This document shows positions 517-20,989 of a stretch of DNA of 37,816 bases, piece after piece. Source of the stretch: a virus (lineage: Duplodnaviria > Heunggongvirae > Uroviricota > Caudoviricetes); IMG/VR virus record IMGVR_UViG_2563366922_000008, positions 1 through 37,816 of that record. One strand, written 5' to 3'. A program made the translations under genes and the position numbers. How positions within the stretch are numbered: the stretch's first letter is position 1; each line of letters starts with the position of its first letter. Under the pieces are notes generated by a model. That model searched no databases. It saw nothing but the letters and a program-made list of their open reading frames with translations, and was not told where the DNA came from.

Positions 517-1953
517 TTAAGTTAAACCAATTAATCCATGCCCGGTTGAAGCATGTAAGTCCTGAATTAATGCTGCAACTACCTTTGCTAAATCTTCGTG
601 AGTTATTGTTCCAGAGTTAAATGCTGCTCGGGATACGGTGCCGGTTGGCGATCCCCATCCCGTCCTCCTCTCTGAAATAACTTGATTGCCATTAAGTCGT
701 ATTCTTAAGTTGTTGAAGTTAGCCCAGTTCTCAGCCCTGTTGAAACTCAAATGTGTTGTATTTGCCGGGCCCGTTCCTACCGTAATTCGTTGATTGTCGC
801 CCATCAAAATTGCGCAGTTGTTTGAAAATCTAGCTTCAGAAAATGAAATTCCACTCCTAAAATAATTTGTTCTAAATCTAATGCCGTTTGCAGCTCCAGA
901 TGATAGAGATCCCTCAAGTCTGATGTATTCGCCATTACCTACCTCGGTTAGTTCCTCTGTTGGAGTGGAAATAGAATTACCTCTAAACAACATTCCTGTC
1001 CAGATATAACCATTTGGAGCTTCACTCCCTCTTCCGATGGTAATCATCTGTGTTACTGGATTGCTTTTATCCTGAGTTACACATACCAACCCTCTTACAG
1101 ATCCTTGCAGTGCATTCTCCATCCATCCTTTATCGGGACCTCGATTATTCAGATTAAATTCATGTGCAATAGTGCTAATCGCTCCATTCTGCACTGCATC
1201 TCCTAATACTGCACCATATGACCACCCCCCCCATGTTTCGGCTTGCGGATTTCTTGATTCTCCACGCATGTGGTGACCAATTGAATGCCCATTCCCTCCC
1301 TCATGCTTAGCAACACTTGTAGTTGTGCATGTATATGCACTTCCTGACACCTTGCGCAAAGAGTTATAAATTACCCCCTGATCCCATCGTTTGATGCCGT
1401 CATCCCTAGTTGCAGAACTAATTTTTTCCAGCCAAATAATGGGATCTGGAATTGGTGTTTCTGGTATGGAGAATCTCTGTCGTGTAGCATTTTTATATAT
1501 GATAGTTTCATTGTTATAAATATTGTCACCAGCTGCATCTGAACCAGTCCATCCTGAGCCAGCATAAAAATTCTTAAGTCCATCACCAGACTGTCCAGTC
1601 AAAACTACTCTTAACTGATCCGGGTCATACTTCAGCACATTTGGGAATTTGAACTGCTGTGCACCATACGCATCATAAACAGCCATAGAATGGCCTTGCT
1701 CAGTTACGAATTTGGCAATCTGTCCGTTATATACAGGGTAACCAGCGGCGTTAATGATGATTGGTTGCGAAACGGGAACATGAGAGCCGTCTTCGTTCTC
1801 TACATAAACCTGAATCTGGTTTTCAGGATTTACTGGGTCAGTGTCAATTTTACCGATATAAATCTTTCCATTAGCTACGGCTTTAAAAGAACGAGCCATA
1901 GTGAAGAGTTGCGAAGGCATGCTGACTACAACATTGGCTGTAATGTCTGTCAT
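517..1953 (-). CDS. Tailspike / tail fiber protein with P22 gp9-type N-terminal head-binding domain and a divergent receptor-binding region
   Basis: 478-aa ORF; N-terminus [11 protein letters not shown]...[33 protein letters not shown]...NVLKYDPDQ matches the P22 tailspike head-binding domain as I recall it; rest unlike the P22 endorhamnosidase; GGAG 8 nt upstream of ATG. Confidence 0.8.
1225..1232 (-). repeat. Homopolymeric G8 tract (C8 on plus strand) inside tailspike coding sequence
   Basis: Plus strand ...accaCCCCCCCCatg...; encodes W-G-G-W (tgg ggg ggg tgg) in the tailspike frame. Confidence 0.9.
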
Positions 1954-2021
1954 TTAATTTGCTCCAGATACAAGGAATCGCCGCAGCATTGCCACAGTGA
2001 TGCATTATTAATCAAACAAAG

Positions 2022-2036
2022 AGACCACTGTGGTCT
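2022..2036. promoter_or_regulatory. 15-bp palindrome AGACCACTGTGGTCT in mnt-tailspike intergenic region; candidate Mnt operator
   Basis: Perfect 7-bp inverted arms around a central T, about 65 bp upstream of mnt; resembles the symmetric P22 mnt operator in style (recalled, not verified). Confidence 0.35.
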
Positions 2037-2099
2037 TATTGAGGATGCAACCAGCAGATAATAAGATGCCGATCCACTCACAAAAGCGAGGCATCAAGA

Positions 2100-2351
2100 A
2101 TGGGAAGAGATGACCCGCAATTTAATCTGCGGCTACCTTACGAATTAAAGGAAAAACTAAAACAGCGAGCCAAATCCAATGGCCGCTCTCTTAATTCAGA
2201 ATTAGTTCAGATAGTTACTGATGCTGTATCAAAGCCATCCAAAATTTCAGGCTATCGAGACGATGCGGAACGCATCGCTGATGAGCAGTCCGAACTTGTT
2301 AAGAAGATGGTGTTTGATACGCTGAAGGATTTGTACAAAAAACCCACCTGA
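2100..2351 (+). CDS. mnt: Mnt repressor (ribbon-helix-helix, P22 immI-type)
   Basis: 83-aa ORF MGRDDPQFNLRLPYELKEKLKQRAKSNGRSLNSELVQIVTDAVSKPS...ADEQSELVKKMVFDTLKDLYKK, matching P22 Mnt in length and sequence as recalled. Confidence 0.85.
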   Translation: MGRDDPQFNLRLPYELKEKLKQRAKSNGRSLNSELVQIVTDAVSKPSKISGYRDDAERIADEQSELVKKMVFDTLKDLYKKPT

Positions 2352-2367
2352 CGGTGGGTTAATTTTT
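2341..2367 (+). terminator. Rho-independent terminator-like hairpin at mnt 3' end
   Basis: aacccacc-tgac-ggtgggtt followed by aattttt; mnt stop codon lies in the loop. Confidence 0.5.
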
Positions 2368-2450
2368 GCATTTACCTGGGCCATATTGACTACTTATAAA
2401 ATGAGATCAATATTTAATCGCCCAATAACGGGTGTATGTTGAGGTATATC

Positions 2451-2630
2451 ATGGCGAAAAAACCAGGTGAAAACACAGGAAAAAACGGCGGAATATACCA
2501 AGAAGTTGGCCCGCGCGGCGGTAAGAAAGACAATTTTGCCACCGTCAAGGACAACGAAAGGCTTCCACCAACAACAAAGCCAGGTCATGGCTGGGTATTA
2601 GATAAGCGAACTCCAGACAGCAAAAAGTAA
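2451..2630 (+). CDS. Hypothetical small basic Gly/Lys-rich protein (59 aa)
   Basis: ATG at 2451 with GAGGT 5 nt upstream; MAKKPGENTGKNGGIYQEVGPRGGKKDNFATVKDNERLPPTTKPGHGWVLDKRTPDSKK; followed by a terminator hairpin; table ORF starts at an upstream TTG. Confidence 0.45.
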   Translation: MAKKPGENTGKNGGIYQEVGPRGGKKDNFATVKDNERLPPTTKPGHGWVLDKRTPDSKK

Positions 2631-2636
2631 TAATCA

Positions 2637-2658
2637 AGCCGGATCACTCCGGCTTTTT
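2637..2658 (+). terminator. Rho-independent terminator (aagccgga-tcact-ccggctt + TTTTT) between convergent genes
   Basis: Perfect 7-bp stem with T5 run on plus strand directly after the 2451-2630 ORF; stop codon of the minus-strand gene lies inside the hairpin. Confidence 0.5.
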
Positions 2659-3009
2659 GATATGTCGCTCGCAGAACTCAACAAGCCTGCTCATTAAGTA
2701 GCAGTAAGTCTCGTTGGCTCTTCCTGGTTCAACATCAACACCGACCCTTGAGCAGATATCGAATGCCATGTGAGCGCACTCATGGGCAATAGTAGATAGT
2801 TTGCCATTGAACACGCCTATCACATGCAAAACACCATTCTCGCTACTCATTGTATGAGACGCTCCGTTGGCGTCCGAGTCATGCACGTCAACGCCAAGTT
2901 TTTGATGCAGGCGTTGCCATTCTGGAAAGTCTCTACAAAACACAATTGTACCGCTCTCAAAGAGCGGTACTAGCATCTTTGGTACGTTTCCAATGTTAAC
3001 TTTTTTCAT
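2644..3009 (-). CDS. Hypothetical 121-aa protein with HExxH motif (possible small zinc-metallopeptidase-like protein)
   Basis: ORF MKKVNIGNVPKMLVPLFESG...STIAHECAHMAFDICSRVG...; ATG at 3009 with AGGA 5 nt upstream; HECAH is a candidate zincin motif; no family assigned. Confidence 0.5.
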   Translation of the reverse strand: MKKVNIGNVPKMLVPLFESGTIVFCRDFPEWQRLHQKLGVDVHDSDANGASHTMSSENGVLHVIGVFNGKLSTIAHECAHMAFDICSRVGVDVEPGRANETYCYLMSRLVEFCERHIKKPE

Positions 3010-3043
3010 GGTATCCTGCGCAAAACTAAGGAGAGTTAATTAT

Positions 3044-3529
3044 ATGAAAAAATCACTGTTAATTATCCCGCTTCTGCTGGCTGGGTGCGCAAAAGTAAGC
3101 GACTATCAGGCAAGTTGCGAGCAACGCTATCCAAAGCTTAGCGATATGGCTAATTGCCTTGATGCCAGCTTGAAGAACGACTCTCGCATGGCATCAGCAC
3201 CAACACCTAAGCTGTATGTCCTTGCTGCGAAGATGCTCGGGCAAGGTGTCGATGAAGGCAAGATAAGTGACACACAGGCAAGACTTGAACTTCAGAATCT
3301 TTATGTTCAATTACAAAGCCAAGAACAAGCCCAACAAATAGCGCAAAGCCAAGCATTCCAGCAGGCTTTATTGAATTATCAGGCTGTAAACACAATGCAA
3401 GCGATCGAGCAAAAAGCGCGCCAGCCTGTTATAACTCAACCTTACCCAACACGCGTTGACACATATACAAACTGCAATTCAGGATTTGGAAACACGGTAA
3501 CATGCAACAGTAGCAGTAATATCAGGTAG
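3044..3529 (+). CDS. Putative lipoprotein (161 aa) with Gln-rich helical region, in the P22 sieA slot
   Basis: ATG at 3044 with AAGGAGAG upstream; N-terminus MKKSLLIIPLLLAGCAK has signal peptide plus lipobox LAGC; Q-rich middle (QLQSQEQAQQIAQSQAFQQALLNYQ); Cys-containing C-terminus. Confidence 0.6.
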   Translation: MKKSLLIIPLLLAGCAKVSDYQASCEQRYPKLSDMANCLDASLKNDSRMASAPTPKLYVLAAKMLGQGVDEGKISDTQARLELQNLYVQLQSQEQAQQIAQSQAFQQALLNYQAVNTMQAIEQKARQPVITQPYPTRVDTYTNCNSGFGNTVTCNSSSNIR

Positions 3530-3543
3530 TTATATCTTATCTT

Positions 3544-5391
3544 TTATTGCTGTTCTGCTGTAATTTGGCTTGAAAGTATAGGGCGTATCGCATTTGCAGC
3601 ATTATTTAGCGCTCTTTCATAGGCTGGCGTTCCTGCTTTGGTGTTTGCCAAACGTAAGAGAGCATTCCTTGCTGCTTTGGACTCATACAAGCGCATCATT
3701 GCACCGAAACCAGCCTCAAGCCCCATTGATACGCCAAGAGTCGCAGTTGCGCCAATCGTCCTTATCCTGTTGGCTTGCGATTGCCCCGTCTGAGTTACTA
3801 CATTTGCGGTGTCTGACCTTGCTGTTTGCTGTAGAACTTCATGAAGAGCATCAAGCTCTTTCATGTGCTTTCCAGAAAAAATAGTGTTGTAAATTTCACC
3901 GCCTGACTGAGATTTCAGCTTATTAACTTCAGTGATGAACTTGGCTGGAGAGTCACCGGATTTTTCCGCTATTTTGCTGACGTAAGCTGCACGCATAGCA
4001 TCTTTCCCTTTATCATCCAATGCGCTCCAGATTCGTTTCACGTCAGATGGTTTTCTGCTTAATACAACGGTATTTATAAGTTCAGGACTGGCTTCACTGC
4101 TTGCCTTGTTGAGCTTGTTAGCAATGTTTTTATTAAGCACCTTATTATAAACGTTTGCATAATCGGAATTTGCTTTAAGGTATTTTGCTGCGTCTGATGC
4201 ACCGAGGTTTTTAGCAACTGCGTTACGAAGGTCTTTTGACATTGCATTCTCTACCATATTGGTAGCTGCTTTTGCCTGGTTGGGGAAGACCATAGCATCT
4301 CCCTGAACATTAGATCTAAATGCTGTTCTGTGCTGACGCAAGAGATCAAACGTAACATCCAAATCAGTTGCAGGGTTTGCTAATTCTTCACGTAGGTTAC
4401 GCAAGGATGTAAGCAGGCTTTGATTGGCAGATGTCCCAAGCCGTTCCTGTCTTGCGATCGCTGTATTCAGAGCATTCATGGTATTTGTGGTATCAACTGA
4501 GGCATTACCCATTTTATTGGTGACGTCATTGATAACAGCGCCATCGGCATCCTTCCGCCCCCTTAACGTGGTGGTCAGAGATTTCACCACATCATCAGGG
4601 TTGTACTCACCAAAACGGTCAAAATAATTACTTACCAGCTTACTACGCGTTGCATATTGCTCAGCTCGCTTTGAGCCTGTCCCGAGCAAAGCCCCCTCGG
4701 CATCCTGAGTAAGGCCACGAGTGAAAGCATTTTTCGGTGGGATGACATCAGATGTCATTGGCGTCACACCCATTGATTCTGAGGTGGCAATTTTTTTCGC
4801 TACTTCTGGCGCGATATCGCCTTTTATAGCCGTTATTCCACGCCCTATTCCCTTTGCTGCTGCGGAAAGAACACCCTGAGCGGCAAGGTTAACTCCGGCA
4901 TTTATGGCTGCATTTTGCGCGAAATCACCTTTCTGGTTTGCGGCTTCTGCCAGTGATCCAATAGCCATGCTTCCTGCCGTTCCAACTCCTGGAACTAAAT
5001 ACCCGCCAATTGTTTCTCCAGCTTGCGCATAAGGGTCTGTCGGTCGATCGACAGGGCGATAAACATCATCCAAAACCTTGGGGCCACCAAGCCCCTGGCT
5101 GATTGCATTAATCAGACTTGCGCCACCCTGCAATACGTCAAATGGTATGTTTACCAGACCACGACCAGCCTGTTCTGCAATTTGCCCTGCACTTTGAGCA
5201 CCTGTGAGCCAATCGCCAGCTTGTTGCATCAATGATGGTTCTTCACGTGCTGGTTCATTATTGGCCTGATTAACTGTTTGTTGCTGAACAGCCTGACCAG
5301 CAAAATACTCATCAATGGCGGTGCCAATATCTTCCGTGCTCGTACCATCAGGGAAGGTAAATGTCTTACCGTTTGCAGTTACTTTCATCAT
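3544..5391 (-). CDS. Ejection (injection) protein, P22 gp16-like
   Basis: 615-aa [36 protein letters not shown]...; position and size as P22 gene 16; start ATG overlaps gp20 stop. Confidence 0.85.
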
Positions 5392-6860
5392 TCCACCGTA
5401 AATTGAATGCCTGATTTTGAGGTATATGATCCGGATTGACTCTGCTGCTGTTGGGTATTTGCCGGTTGTTGGCTATTGCTCTGTTGTTGACTATTTGCAG
5501 CACTTGAAACCACCAAAGCATCATAAACGCGACCAGACTGACCACGTAATGAGTTATATTGGCCCTGCATTTTTCGCATTTTTGTTTCAGTAGCATCCTT
5601 GGAATCACCGGGCTGAGGCAGGTACATTTTGGAATACTCCTGCATCTCTGGCAGAGTAATTGCTGCACCTGTTTCTGGGCGCAAAATTGCATACAAGGCG
5701 TCTCTCGCATTTACCATATATTGCTGCTCCGCTGGTGATAGGCTTAAATTTGCAATAGTCCCATCACCAAGAGAGCGATTTATTAATGCAACTCGCTTAG
5801 GGTCAATGCTTTTACTAAGCTGATTCATTGAGTCCATTGAATCTTTTAATCGCAAAGCAAATCCTGCCGCCTTCTTGGAACCCTCATTAGCCTTATCTAT
5901 GATGCTTTGCGCTTGTGGCAAGCTAATTGGTTTAATGCCATCACCAGATATAGGTTGGTTTAGTTTTCCGGCTTCCTCGCTGCCATCGGTGTAATACTTA
6001 GTTACCGAGCCATCAGGATTGGTTTCAACCTTAAGTAATTTCTTAGCATTGGGATTAATTCCCGCCGCTGCCGCAAATGCCGCTGCACCATCGGGATCCG
6101 CCTTTAACATTTGCGCGTACTGATTATAATTCTGCATTGCAGCTGTTGGTGCATATGCTGACGTTAACGCATTTGCTCGGCTAATATCCTGCCCTCTCGC
6201 CTGAAGCGCCTCTCCAGCCTGATTGCTGCGGATTGTCTCTGCCAGCCTTCCTCGGTCAATTTCACGACCAGCCATCTTGTCCTGAACATTGAAGTAATCA
6301 ATCGGACCAAGAGCAGCCATTCCAAGGTGATCAACAAACTCACCAAATCCTGAAGGATTCTGCTGATACATCTGAGCAACGTTATTAGGGTCAACACCGA
6401 CGAGCGCCAGCTCATTGGCGTTGTTTTGCAGCCATGATTGCATTGCTTCTGGAGACGATGACGCAAGGCGTGCGCCAGCCGCTAAGGTGCCGATAGAATT
6501 GCGCTGGTCTTCGTCTGCCCACTTCATACCAGACTGAATCTTCTCTAATTGACCAGGATATTTGGTCATCAGATCTCGAACCTGCTGTCGATCACCGGAC
6601 TGGATGGCTGCCGCATATTCTTTTTGGAATGCAGCATCCGCTTCCTTTTGCTTTGCGGCTTGATATGTTTGAGCGACACTACCAAGTCCATGCAACGCCT
6701 GAAGGCCGATGTTATTGCGATCTGACCGCTCCATTTCGTTGTTCTGGCGAATATAGGCCAACGCCTCACTTACATCACTTGCCTTTGGCGCATTTGAGTT
6801 TTGCCCACCGATACCAGCAAGAAAACCGCCTGAGTTGATTCCTTGTTGCCAAGTAGCCAT
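5388..6860 (-). CDS. Ejection protein, P22 gp20-like
   Basis: 490-aa ORF between gp7 and gp16 homologues; AAGGTGGG RBS upstream of ATG. Confidence 0.85.
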
Positions 6861-19846: not shown

Positions 19847-20314
19847 TCATCGAAGGCATTGCGTCCTGATATATTCCTGAAGCGTTCTCAGTGCTGTCTG
19901 GTCTCTGATGATTCCGTCCCGGATACCGAGAACGTTTCGTCCAGCAACTGGAGAGAGTTCGACGGTGGCATCATTGCCCATGCCGGAGGAGCTGGAGGTT
20001 TCGGCTGAGGATGGCACAGGGCATTTTCCTTTGACGAGCACCCGACCACCATTATCAAGCTTGCGCCGAAGAGCATCATTTTCAGCTTTCGCATCAGCTA
20101 ACTCCTTCGTGTATTTAGCATCGAGTGCATCAGCATCACGCTGGCGCTGTTGCATGTCAGTAATGGTGGCGTTCGCCTTCTCCAGTTCACTGGCCTTGTT
20201 ATCGCGCTGTTCTTTGTAGGCGATGGCGTTATCATGGTAATGGTTAACAGCCCATGACAGGCAGACGATGATGCAAATAACCAGAGCGGAGATAATCGCG
20301 GTTACTCTGCTCAT
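19847..20314 (-). CDS. Rz: Spanin inner-membrane subunit Rz (lambda-like)
   Basis: ATG at 20314 overlapping endolysin stop; [26 protein letters not shown]...[30 protein letters not shown] matches lambda Rz as recalled. Confidence 0.8.
19888..20094 (-). CDS. Rz1: Spanin outer-membrane lipoprotein Rz1, embedded in +1 frame of Rz
   Basis: [24 protein letters not shown]... with lipobox VVGC, Pro-rich, fully inside Rz as in lambda. Confidence 0.7.
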
Positions 20315-20814
20315 TGCTGCCCCCACAAACAGACTTCACGCTCAATCTCACGACGAGTCATCAGACCTTTCCATTGCTTACCGCCAGCGTATGTCCAGCG
20401 ACGTAGCTGATCACATGCGCCTTTGATATCGCCCTGGTTGATTTTGTGCAGAAGCGTCGATGTTCTGAAATTGCCAGCGCCCACGTTGTAGACGAACGAG
20501 TAAAGAGCGCCGCGCGTTGTTTCCGGTATATCGACTTTGATGTACGGGTTAATTTGTCTGGCGACCGTGGCAAGGTCTTTATTCAGGAGGGCTTTGCATT
20601 CTGCTTCGGTATACGTTTTACCGGGAATGATGTCTTTTCCGGTGTGCCCGTAACATACAGTCCATACACCAACTATGTCTTTGTAAGGATTATGTCTCAC
20701 ACCTTCCAGACCATCGTTACCACTCGGTCCAGTGATTAACACAGATGCTATAGCAATAGCCCCGCCACTTATCGCCGCTATTACGCTATTTCGTAGTGCC
20801 GGTGACATTGCCAT
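20311..20814 (-). CDS. SAR endolysin (T4-lysozyme-like muramidase with N-terminal signal-arrest-release domain)
   Basis: 167-aa ORF with Gly/Ala-rich weakly hydrophobic N-terminus ([23 protein letters not shown]) followed by LEG....Y.D..G.WT.CYGHTG lysozyme catalytic region; phage 21 R-type. Confidence 0.85.
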
Positions 20815-20989
20815 TCAATCTGTCCTCGCGCTCTTTGCGCTTGTAGTACCAGTTGATGCCAAATGTGCCGACAGTACAAAGAATACCAATAATGACAGCC
20901 CAGTCATTCAGGGAGAGAATGCCACCCATCGCAGTCAGTCCTCCGAAACTGTAACTGAACCATTCTCTGATTTTGTCCATACGGTACAT
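20786..20989 (-). CDS. Class II holin / pinholin-like protein with dual-start motif
   Basis: 67-aa [56 protein letters not shown]...; two TM segments; Met1-Tyr-Arg-Met4 dual start; AAGGGG RBS; overlaps endolysin start. Confidence 0.7.

What the first reader, a model, noticed from the sequence alone, without database searches (positions are those of the whole stretch)
3044..3529. Lipoprotein encoded on the opposite strand in the sieA slot
It has a canonical lipoprotein signal (MKKSLLIIPLLLAGC), a Gln-rich helical middle and a Cys-containing C-terminus. It is transcribed opposite to the flanking ejection-protein genes, suggesting expression independent of the late operon, possibly in lysogens. 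P22 carries superinfection-exclusion sieA here. Phage lipoproteins in such slots often block receptors or DNA entry (Cor, Llp, Bor-like).
Basis: partly seen in the sequence, partly recalled or inferred. Interest (0 to 1): 0.5.

Follow-up and report, generated by a model that had tools for sequence, protein, structure and literature searches.

The report
Prophage lipoprotein gene replacing sieA
A P22-like prophage of E. coli carries, exactly where phage P22 has its superinfection-exclusion gene sieA and behind the same promoter region, an unrelated and uncharacterised outer-membrane lipoprotein gene that is expressed in lysogens and is a good but untested candidate for a new phage-exclusion protein.

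Summary
Window 3044-3529 (+) encodes a 161-aa protein with a lipoprotein signal peptide (LLAGC, Cys15, Ala at +2, which predicts outer-membrane sorting). It has a confident helical domain, a Gln-rich linker and a C-terminal Cys-x9-Cys hairpin.

The gene is real: it matches phrog_6067 (unknown function), has dN/dS about 0.04, has 90 homologues across Enterobacterales, and occurs in 186 of 5426 complete E. coli genomes.

It is allelic to P22 sieA. P22 and the window are about 92% identical from mnt through the annotated PsieA promoter to the Shine-Dalgarno sequence. Homology stops there and resumes in gene 16. The two proteins are unrelated.

The cassette (extended -10, SD and ORF) stays at least 96% identical across at least 8 upstream contexts and at least 8 gp16 types.

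Published RNA-seq shows that the 97.5%-identical LF82/Gally orthologue is transcribed 5- to 80-fold above the adjacent late gene in lysogens, and is induced in macrophages.

No sequence or fold relative has a known function. My best reading is a periplasm-facing superinfection-exclusion factor. That function is inferred, not shown.

The parts
2979..3009 (+). 31-nt sequence identical to the promoter annotated for sieA in P22 (BK000583 13861-13891)
   Evidence: P22 annotation. Alignment A3. P22 sieA with only 85 bp of upstream DNA excludes phage when placed in galK (PMC10883804).
3009..3017 (+). Extended -10-like element TGgTATCCT. It predicts a transcription start near 3024 and a leader of about 20 nt.
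   Evidence: The motif travels with the cassette in 52 of 82 IMG/VR loci whose sequence further upstream is unrelated. Related TGnTAnnCT motifs occur in Tatumella and MAG loci. TGNTATCCTG occurs twice in the window against 0.25 expected. The function is inferred, not mapped.
3028..3033 (+). Shine-Dalgarno AAGGAG. It is also the last base block shared with P22.
   Evidence: The blastn block P22 13837-14770 = window 3033-2100 ends here.
3044..3529 (+). Lipoprotein CDS, 161 aa, member of phrog_6067
   Evidence: dN/dS is 0.04.
3044..3088 (+). Signal peptide with lipobox LAGC. Cys15 would be the lipidated first residue of the mature protein, and Ala16 at +2 predicts Lol-dependent outer-membrane sorting.
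   Evidence: C15 and A16 are invariant in 54 sequences. All full-length homologues have a lipobox.
3095..3331 (+). Helical bundle domain (residues 18-96) with invariant C25 and C38, a probable disulfide
   Evidence: AlphaFold2 pLDDT is 80-89 over this stretch. Invariant columns are listed. The domain is shared by a wider family of 234 cluster representatives.
3332..3448 (+). Gln-rich helix plus Pro-rich segment (residues 97-135), acting as a variable-length linker
   Evidence: Low pLDDT. The segment is absent or short in the 126-130-aa relatives. Residues 84-127 are 34% Gln.
3461..3511 (+). C-terminal beta-hairpin (residues 140-156) with C144 and C154, motif TNCxxGFGNTVTC
   Evidence: A C-x8/9-C pair is present in all full-length homologues, in three sequence variants. 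The model confidence here is low.
3507..3561 (.). Imperfect inverted repeat spanning the two convergent stop codons. No intrinsic terminator was recognised.
   Evidence: The region's z-score is only -1.1, so this is weak.
3544..5391 (-). gp16 ejection protein (P22 type, 74% identical to P22 gp16), convergent neighbour
2644..3009 (-). 121-aa ORF with an HExxH motif on the late strand, the divergent neighbour. Its start codon overlaps the promoter region of the lipoprotein gene.
   Evidence: An intact but unannotated copy is present in P22.
2636..2655 (.). Bidirectional terminator-like hairpin (the P22 mnt terminator). It separates the mnt-orf59a unit from the lipoprotein gene.
2100..2630 (+). 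mnt (2100-2351) and the orf59a homologue (2436-2630), prophage-expressed genes on the same strand as the lipoprotein gene

Best explanation
The feature is a self-contained moron cassette: an extended -10 promoter, a short leader with a Shine-Dalgarno sequence, and an ORF. It encodes a 147-residue mature lipoprotein.

[quoted passage not shown] It then faces the periplasm. A disulfide-stapled helical domain sits next to the membrane anchor. A flexible Gln/Pro-rich linker connects it to a small disulfide-stapled C-terminal hairpin.

The cassette occupies the same genomic site, orientation and promoter region as sieA in P22, and it is transcribed from the prophage.

Most likely function: the protein does what SieA does but from the other side of the periplasm. 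It would prevent superinfecting phages, primarily P22-like podoviruses, from completing DNA delivery after adsorption. It could do this by binding an incoming virion-derived component or a conserved host envelope component that the ejection-protein conduit needs.

Shown: the gene, the lipoprotein features, its conservation, the allelic swap with sieA, and lysogenic transcription of the orthologue.

Inferred: outer-membrane and periplasmic location, the disulfides, the promoter element, and the whole exclusion function and its target.
For: 1. Allelic replacement. P22 13837-14770 matches window 3033-2100 at 91.8%, covering mnt, orf59a, the terminator, the 121-aa ORF, the annotated PsieA promoter and the SD. 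Window 3034-3579 has no P22 homology. gp16 homology (69%) resumes after that. The P22 PsieA 31-mer is identical in the window. SieA plus 85 bp of upstream DNA is sufficient for exclusion (PMC10883804).

2. Fixed position in P22-like elements. The gene is always convergent with gp16, between gp16 and the tailspike or mnt. This holds in E. coli, Salmonella, Serratia, Yersinia, Morganella and Proteus. P22-type SieA was not found in any of the roughly 100 lipoprotein-bearing loci.

3. Prophage expression. For LF82_138/GALLYPH_13, log2 fpkm is 6.0-6.3 in stationary LB, 7.9-8.2 in the two conditions labelled B1 and B6 (bacteria outside macrophages), 10.3 in macrophages at 1 h and 8.5-8.7 at 6 h. The adjacent gp16 gene reads 3.6-4.2 in every condition, and the profiles are strand-resolved. 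The homologue lies in tandem after mnt in phage Brookers and in a Serratia prophage.

4. Envelope protein. The lipobox and +2 Ala are invariant, and four further Cys are conserved in two pairs. A 34%-identical homologue in the same slot has a plain SPase-I-type signal peptide, which points to action in the periplasm.

5. Strong selection on a mobile unit. dN/dS is 0.04. The protein stays at least 96% identical across at least 8 upstream contexts and at least 8 gp16 types, in 20 combinations.

6. Precedent for this slot. P22 SieA and the BTP1 antisense RNA STnc6030 are both prophage-expressed exclusion functions encoded antisense to the late operon next to the gp16 gene (PMC10883804; PMC7067206).
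Against: - There is no functional test of this family anywhere in the literature I could search.
- No sequence or structural similarity exists to any exclusion protein.
- SieA escape mutations map to gp16 and gp20. This lipoprotein does not co-vary with the resident ejection proteins. It is 96-98% identical between the window, Gally and VSe13, whose gp16 proteins are about 30% identical and whose gp20 proteins are about 45% identical. If it excludes phage, its target is probably not the variable part of those proteins.
- The same inter-gene region also carries genes with other roles, such as mnt/arc/ant, a second lipoprotein in Gally and an HExxH ORF. The slot alone is therefore not diagnostic.
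- Strong induction in macrophages would also fit a host-fitness role.
- The authors of the LF82 study did not class the gene as a moron. It was 4.5-fold above background against their 5-fold cut-off in stationary LB.
- No terminator was found downstream.
Confidence: 0.45

Rival explanations
1. Lysogenic-conversion factor for host fitness rather than phage exclusion. The lipoprotein would change envelope properties, for example resistance to serum, macrophages or envelope stress, as lambda Bor does. It sits in this slot only because the slot tolerates insertions.
For: - The orthologue is induced about 16-fold at 1 h in macrophages relative to stationary LB (log2 10.3 against about 6.1), and the 6 h comparison gives log2FC 2.55 with q = 4.7e-27.
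- The gene is present in pathogenic lineages, including O104:H4 C227-11 and the AIEC strain LF82.
- It is independent of the ejection-protein type.
- The region hosts other accessory genes, including a second highly expressed lipoprotein in Gally.
Against: - The close family is tied to the gp16/sieA position in P22-like elements in several genera, and the swap with an exclusion gene is ORF-precise.
- No similarity to Bor or any virulence lipoprotein was found.
- The whole right end of Gally is induced in macrophages, including mnt and the tailspike gene, so the induction is not specific to this gene.
- A CRISPRi gut-colonisation screen of LF82 did not highlight this gene.
Confidence: 0.25
2. 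Receptor-masking lipoprotein of the Cor/Llp type. It would bind the periplasmic face of an outer-membrane protein used as a receptor, such as FhuA, OmpA or OmpC. This would block adsorption or triggering of heterologous phages, or protect progeny virions from debris.
For: - It is predicted to be an outer-membrane lipoprotein with disulfides, like T5 Llp (my own knowledge of Llp; not tested here).
- Its sequence diverges roughly with host genus, as expected if the partner is a host protein.
- It is independent of the resident ejection-protein type.
Against: - The PHROG Cor family matches only the signal peptide (residues 1-29, E = 0.092).
- No fold match to any solved lipoprotein-receptor complex was found.
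- P22-like phages adsorb to O-antigen, and the gene is confined to P22-like prophages. A link to a particular protein receptor is therefore not indicated.
- The gene lies antisense to the late operon, which is a poor arrangement for a lytic-phase protective role like that of Llp.
Confidence: 0.12
3. The main function is at the RNA level. Transcription from the cassette runs convergently into gene 16 and acts as a cis-antisense RNA or by transcriptional interference against late transcripts of incoming or resident phage, as STnc6030 does in BTP1. The protein would be secondary.
For: - Only 14 bp separate the stop codons, and no intrinsic terminator was recognised.
- BTP1 provides a precedent at the same position (PMC7067206).
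Against: - dN/dS is 0.04, and the signal peptide, lipobox and four Cys are invariant, so the protein itself is under strong selection.
- The same ORF sits next to at least 8 unrelated gp16 3' ends. An antisense tail would therefore have no conserved target.
Confidence: 0.05
4. A lytic-cycle accessory protein, for example a lysis or egress factor or an o-spanin-like protein.
For: There is a weak PHROG hit to an Rz-like spanin family (E = 0.071), limited to the signal peptide.
Against: - The window has its own holin, endolysin, Rz and embedded Rz1 at 19.8-21.0 kb.
- The gene is antisense to the late operon and is transcribed in uninduced lysogens.
Confidence: 0.03

Closest known systems
P22 SieA (superinfection exclusion A)
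   Same: - Same genomic site, orientation and upstream promoter/SD region.
- Convergent with gene 16.
- Similar length (161 aa against 164 aa).
- Envelope protein expressed from the prophage.
   Different: - No sequence similarity: BLASTP finds no alignment.
- SieA is a polytopic inner-membrane protein with three hydrophobic segments and no signal peptide. This protein has a cleavable lipoprotein signal and no transmembrane segment.
- SieA's genetic target is gp16/gp20, whereas this gene does not co-vary with them.
T5 Llp and phi80/N15 Cor (exclusion lipoproteins that inactivate FhuA)
   Same: Small phage-encoded predicted outer-membrane lipoproteins with disulfide-forming Cys. They are plausible mechanistic analogues.
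   Different: - No homology. The Cor PHROG matches only the signal peptide.
- No fold match.
- Different phage group, and no evidence for a protein receptor.
Ltp of Streptococcus phage TP-J34 (lipoprotein that blocks DNA injection by binding the tape measure protein)
   Same: A prophage-expressed lipoprotein that acts after adsorption on the DNA-delivery machinery. This is the closest analogue to the mechanism proposed here (cited in PMC10883804).
   Different: Gram-positive host, different fold and architecture, and no sequence or structural match.
BTP1 STnc6030 antisense RNA
   Same: A prophage-expressed exclusion determinant in the same gap between the gp16 gene and the tailspike gene, transcribed antisense to the late operon.
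   Different: It is a non-coding RNA. Here a protein under strong purifying selection is encoded.
Lambda Bor (serum-resistance lipoprotein)
   Same: A prophage-expressed outer-membrane lipoprotein moron located among late genes.
   Different: No Pfam Lambda_Bor hit. Different size and architecture.
phrog_6067 and the wider unnamed family
   Same: Full-length match to phrog_6067 (E = 2.9e-109). A profile search finds 234 cluster representatives sharing the N-terminal Cys-Cys helical domain and the C-terminal Cys hairpin.
   Different: The family has no assigned function, no Pfam or NCBIfam model and no solved structure.

Membership tests
Bacterial lipoprotein (SPase II substrate) | N-terminal signal peptide with a basic n-region and a hydrophobic h-region, ending in a lipobox [LVI][ASTVI][GAS]C | tested here: met
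   The N-terminus is MKKSLLIIPLLLAGC. A lipobox ending at about residue 15 is present in every full-length homologue, and C15 is invariant.
Bacterial lipoprotein (SPase II substrate) | Actual diacylglyceryl modification and cleavage (globomycin sensitivity, palmitate labelling) | not testable with these tools
   This needs an experiment.
Outer-membrane (Lol-sorted) lipoprotein | No Lol-avoidance residue (Asp) at +2 | tested here: met
   Residue +2 is Ala, invariant in alignment A2. It is Val in a few homologues that carry an extra residue. Localisation itself was not tested.
SieA family | Sequence homology to P22 SieA (types A-C) | tested here: not met
   BLASTP finds no alignment at E <= 100. 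Only type A was compared directly.
SieA family | Polytopic inner-membrane protein with three transmembrane helices | tested here: not met
   The maximum Kyte-Doolittle (19-residue window) value outside the signal peptide is 0.47. SieA shows three hydrophobic blocks.
SieA family | Located between genes 16 and 9, convergent with 16, behind PsieA | tested here: met
   This is a positional feature, not a family-defining one.
Cor superinfection exclusion protein (phrog_1119) | Profile match over the mature protein | tested here: not met
   E = 0.092, residues 1-29 only, which is the signal peptide.
Lambda Bor / other Pfam lipoprotein families | Pfam profile match | tested here: not met
   No Pfam family matches at E <= 1. 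There are no NCBIfam hits.
Known anti-phage defence proteins (PADLOC) | Profile match | tested here: not met
   No hits at E <= 1.
Rz1 o-spanin | Small Pro-rich lipoprotein embedded in or adjacent to Rz in the lysis cassette | tested here: not met
   The window has its own Rz (19847-20326) and embedded Rz1 (19888-20094). The PHROG spanin hit (E = 0.071) covers the signal peptide only.
phrog_6067 (unknown function) | Full-length profile match | tested here: met
   E = 2.9e-109, residues 1-161 of 161.
Moron (autonomously expressed prophage accessory gene) | Own promoter | tested here: inconclusive
   The sequence is identical to the P22-annotated PsieA promoter, and the extended -10 TGgTATCCT is conserved with the cassette. 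The consensus scanner did not call a sigma-70 promoter here. No transcription start site has been mapped.
Moron (autonomously expressed prophage accessory gene) | Transcribed in the lysogen while the flanking late genes are silent | tested here: met
   The published RNA-seq is for the 97.5%-identical Gally orthologue, not for this prophage. Its level is 5- to 80-fold above the adjacent gp16 gene.
Moron (autonomously expressed prophage accessory gene) | Own terminator | tested here: not met
   No terminator-like site lies downstream of 3529. There is only an imperfect inverted repeat across the stop codons.

The most novel reading that the evidence does not exclude
The lipoprotein founds a new class of exclusion proteins that act from the outer-membrane side of the periplasm. 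On this reading it does not target the variable ejection proteins. It targets a conserved host envelope component, or a conserved step, that all P22-like podoviruses need to build their trans-periplasmic DNA conduit. This would explain why one nearly invariant protein serves phages with gp16 proteins only 30% identical. Identifying its partner would then reveal the still unknown host factor for podovirus DNA delivery.
Probability: 0.15. Interest if true: 0.75.

Novelty: new variant of a known kind. Interest (0 to 1): 0.5.

Why it matters
Two thirds of sequenced P22-like phages lack sieA (PMC10883804), and what fills that position has not been examined.

This cassette is one frequent occupant. 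It is found in 3.4% of complete E. coli genomes, including the O104:H4 outbreak lineage and the AIEC strain LF82. It also occurs in 127 IMG/VR contigs and in prophages of at least ten enterobacterial genera. It is expressed in lysogens.

If it excludes phages, it would be a new protein family for a known function. It would also give a handle on the periplasmic stage of podovirus DNA delivery, and it would be relevant to phage-therapy host-range prediction.

If instead it serves the host, it is an unrecognised macrophage-induced envelope moron in a prophage that has been described as having no morons.

Tried and rejected
Searches that found no informative match:
- Pfam, NCBIfam and PADLOC scans found nothing.
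- PHROG hits other than phrog_6067 cover only the signal peptide, so I rejected them.
- A profile search of PDB sequences found nothing meaningful.
- The afdb50 library was not available.

Ideas checked and dropped:
- I suspected the neighbouring 121-aa ORF might be P22 pid. It is not. pid lies between orf25 and orf80.
- I checked the o-spanin idea and rejected it.
- I looked for co-variation between the lipoprotein and the resident ejection proteins and found none.
- I looked for a terminator after the gene and found none.
- Literature searches by accession, PHROG number and keywords found no characterisation of the family.

- The genome-collection scan returned only 5 loci, because it holds one genome per species.
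- A viral-contig scan with the divergent alignment failed for lack of a conserved stretch.
I partly worked around this.
- The alignment-based word search for distant relatives returned only 5 proteins.

Full report
**What is there.** Window 3044-3529 (+) is an open reading frame of 161 codons. It is preceded by AAGGAG at 3028-3033. The product begins MKKSLLIIPLLLAGC. This is a basic n-region, a hydrophobic core and the lipobox L-A-G-C, with Cys15 as the residue that would be lipidated and Ala at +2.

In an alignment of 54 homologues, C15, A16, Y21, Q22, C25, E26, C38, L39, D46, K56, Y58 and C154 are among the invariant columns. Every full-length homologue has the following features:
- a lipobox ending near residue 15;
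- Ala (rarely Val) at +2;
- Cys at +11 and +24 of the mature chain;
- a C-terminal C-x8/9-C pair.

There is no transmembrane segment after the signal peptide. Residues 84-127 are 34% Gln.

AlphaFold2 with this alignment gives a confident helical bundle for residues 18-96 (pLDDT 80-89). Confidence is low for the helix at 101-124 and for the C-terminal hairpin at 140-156.

Against the Gally and VSe13 orthologues, dN/dS is 0.04. One nuance applies: ejection-protein genes flank the gene on one side only.

**Where the window comes from.** The region is 100% identical to the chromosome of E. coli EF5-18-41. It is a P22-like (Lederbergvirus-type) prophage next to tRNA-Arg and intS. Gene order and orientation mirror P22:
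- gp7, gp20 and gp16 on the late (-) strand;
- the lipoprotein gene on the + strand;
- a 121-aa ORF on the - strand;
- a bidirectional terminator at 2636-2655;
- an orf59a homologue and mnt on the + strand;
- the tailspike gene on the - strand.

The prophage's lysis cassette, including Rz and an embedded Rz1 lipoprotein, lies at 19.8-21.0 kb. This gene is therefore not the o-spanin.

**An ORF-precise swap with sieA.** In P22 (BK000583), sieA lies 22 bp beyond gene 16 on the opposite strand and has its own annotated promoter.

blastn of P22 against the window gives one block, P22 13837-14770 = window 3033-2100, at 91.8% identity. This block runs from the start of mnt to the Shine-Dalgarno sequence in front of sieA. 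A second block at 69% covers gene 16 and ends at window 3580. Nothing in P22 matches window 3034-3579 (alignment).

The 31-nt promoter annotated for sieA is identical at window 2979-3009. Leavitt et al. showed that sieA with only 85 bp of upstream and 22 bp of downstream DNA, placed in galK, excludes P22. A working promoter therefore lies in those 85 bp (PMC10883804). The window shares them at 76 of 79 aligned positions by my count from the alignment.

The two proteins are unrelated. P22-type SieA was not found in any of about 100 lipoprotein-bearing loci. The lipoprotein gene is thus an alternative allele at the sieA site.

**A mobile, conserved cassette.** IMG/VR holds 127 relatives. I examined the best 80 together with the window, Gally and VSe13. 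These encode proteins at least 96% identical to the window's protein.

Around them, the 340 bp upstream fall into at least 8 unrelated clusters. The first 900 bp of the convergent gp16 gene fall into at least 8 clusters. These occur in 20 combinations.

On the right side, similarity between contexts stops at the stop codon. On the left side, in 52 of 82 loci, it stops just upstream of tCATGnTATCCTGyrmAAAACTAAGGAGAGTTAAyyAT-ATG.

The conserved TGnTATCCT is an extended -10-type element, at window 3009-3017. Related TGnTAnnCT motifs sit at the same distance from the start codon in Tatumella and in a metagenome-assembled genome. I infer that this is the cassette's own promoter, with a start near 3024. 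This is not mapped, and the generic sigma-70 scan did not call it.

The Gally-type context lacks the motif yet is transcribed (see the expression section). In Proteus phage Brookers and a Serratia prophage the homologue follows mnt by 17-30 bp, presumably as an operon.

**Distribution.** There are 90 homologues at 50-97% identity in E. coli, Salmonella, Citrobacter, Cronobacter, Klebsiella aerogenes, Serratia, Yersinia, Pectobacterium, Morganella, Providencia, Proteus and Tatumella. The gene occurs in 186 of 5426 complete E. coli genomes, always on the chromosome. These include O104:H4 C227-11 and LF82.

In every context examined for this close family, the gene is convergent with a P22-type gp16 gene.

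A profile search finds 234 cluster representatives of a wider family. They share the N-terminal Cys-Cys helical domain and the C-terminal TTxCxxxGxxxxC hairpin. They differ in the length of the middle segment, so the Gln-rich stretch is a variable linker.

One 34%-identical member in the same slot of a Serratia P22-like prophage has an ordinary signal peptide without a lipobox Cys. This argues that the family works in the periplasm.

The few distant short members whose contexts could be read lie among phage-like genes, but not next to gp16. None of the family has a Pfam model or an informative name.

**Expression.** The Gally prophage of LF82 carries a 97.5%-identical orthologue, GALLYPH_13 = LF82_138. 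The supplementary tables of PMC9928086 give log2(5+fpkm) values for this gene as follows:

| Condition | GALLYPH_13 (two replicates) |
|---|---|
| B1 (bacteria outside macrophages) | 7.87 / 8.15 |
| B6 (bacteria outside macrophages) | 8.02 / 8.22 |
| LB, stationary phase | 6.29 / 5.96 |
| In macrophages, 1 h | 10.29 / 10.30 |
| In macrophages, 6 h | 8.70 / 8.54 |

The adjacent gp16 gene stays at 3.6-4.2 in every condition. The comparison of macrophage 6 h against LB gives log2FC 2.55 with q = 4.7e-27. The profiles are strand-resolved.

In LB the gene reached 70 normalised units against a background median of 15.6. It narrowly missed the authors' 5-fold moron cut-off of 78. That is why the paper states that Gally has no morons.

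For the window itself it rests on the shared PsieA region.

**What it does.** No tool result assigns a function:
- Pfam, NCBIfam and PADLOC give nothing.
- The only full-length PHROG is phrog_6067, of unknown function. The marginal hits to Cor and spanin PHROGs cover only the signal peptide.
- Foldseek against the PDB and BFVD finds nothing below E = 0.29.

The functional argument is therefore contextual. Five points support it:
1. The gene precisely replaces an exclusion gene behind the same promoter.
2. In BTP1 the same gap encodes another prophage-expressed exclusion determinant, the antisense RNA STnc6030 (PMC7067206).
3. The protein is a secreted envelope protein, placed where incoming ejection proteins must assemble.
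4. The close family is confined to P22-like elements.
5. The cassette is under strong purifying selection and spreads horizontally as a unit.

I therefore consider a superinfection-exclusion role at the outer-membrane/periplasm stage of DNA delivery the most likely function, with a probability of about 0.45.

The lack of co-variation with gp16 and gp20 is important. The lipoprotein is 96-98% identical where gp16 is about 30% and gp20 about 45% identical. This suggests that the partner is either a conserved virion component or a host envelope component. SieA differs here, since its escape mutations map to gp16 and gp20.

**Rivals.**
- A host-fitness envelope factor, which the macrophage induction would fit (0.25).
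- Cor/Llp-like masking of an outer-membrane receptor (0.12).
- A primarily antisense-RNA role. The protein-level selection and the unrelated gp16 3' ends next to the same ORF argue against it (0.05).
- A lytic accessory role (0.03).

**Comparison with known systems and novelty.** In its sequence features the protein is a typical bacterial lipoprotein, and it is a member of the uncharacterised phrog_6067. It is not a member of the SieA, Cor, Bor or spanin families, because defining features of each were tested and not met.

It resembles SieA in position and regulation. In its proposed mode of action it resembles Llp, Cor and Ltp.

I found no publication that characterises it. I rate it as a new variant of a known kind: a prophage exclusion or conversion moron from a protein family without assigned function.

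Interest is moderate. The biology is expected in type. However, the allelic relation to sieA, the wide distribution and the existing expression data make a clean, directly testable hypothesis.

Noticed in passing
window 2644-3009 (-); P22 locus L016 4850-5227 (+): A 121-aa ORF on the late strand carries an HExxH motif (IAHECAHMAF) and belongs to phrog_1365 (unknown function). It is intact and about 98% identical in P22 (125 aa there), but BK000583 does not annotate it. Its start codon overlaps the PsieA/extended -10 region of the divergent gene.
   Followed up: partly
L001 4447-4866 (-) = GALLYPH_14 / LF82_139: In phage Gally the divergent neighbour of the lipoprotein gene is itself a lipoprotein (MKRIIGVVAGAILLSGC...). 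It is even more highly transcribed in LF82 lysogens (log2 fpkm 9.8-11.0 outside LB), yet Gally was reported to have no morons.
   Followed up: partly
window 1954-2351: The prophage has mnt but no arc or ant. Window 2001-2099, upstream of mnt, has no P22 homology. What this Mnt represses is therefore unclear. The same arrangement is present in Gally, where deleting mnt gave no phenotype in macrophages.
   Followed up: no
window 517-1953 and 5388-6860 (-): RefSeq annotation of the source genome (NZ_CP063492) marks the tailspike and gp20 genes as partial pseudogenes. Both are uninterrupted ORFs in the window (478 aa and 490 aa). They are probably mosaic genes rather than broken ones.
   Followed up: no
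window 3507-3561: An imperfect inverted repeat spans the two convergent stop codons of the lipoprotein and gp16 genes. No T-tract follows it, and the fold is not significantly stable (z = -1.1). Transcription may run into gene 16 as antisense.
   Followed up: partly
L009-L011 (Serratia marcescens): The lipoprotein gene sits with a tailspike gene, a Bro-N gene and a shortened 490-aa gp16 gene. These directly abut DNA polymerase A and SNF2-helicase genes. This may be a prophage remnant or a different element type.
   Followed up: no
L021 8001-8465 (Serratia sp. 14-2641): A 34%-identical homologue in the same mnt/gp16 slot has an SPase-I-type signal peptide (…PSIASA|TS…) instead of a lipobox. It is a soluble periplasmic version of the family.
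   Followed up: partly
Homologues P0024-P0077: The C-terminal hairpin comes in three sequence variants: …TNCNSGFGNTVTCNSSSNIR, …TTNCTTYGNQTRCQSY and …TTDCHSYGMNTTCTSY. Most non-E. coli forms, and most members of the wider family, end in an aromatic residue directly after the second Cys motif.
   Followed up: no
window 19847-20989 (-): The prophage's lysis cassette is holin (20786-20989), endolysin (20311-20814), Rz (19847-20326) and an embedded Rz1 lipoprotein (19888-20094).
   Followed up: yes
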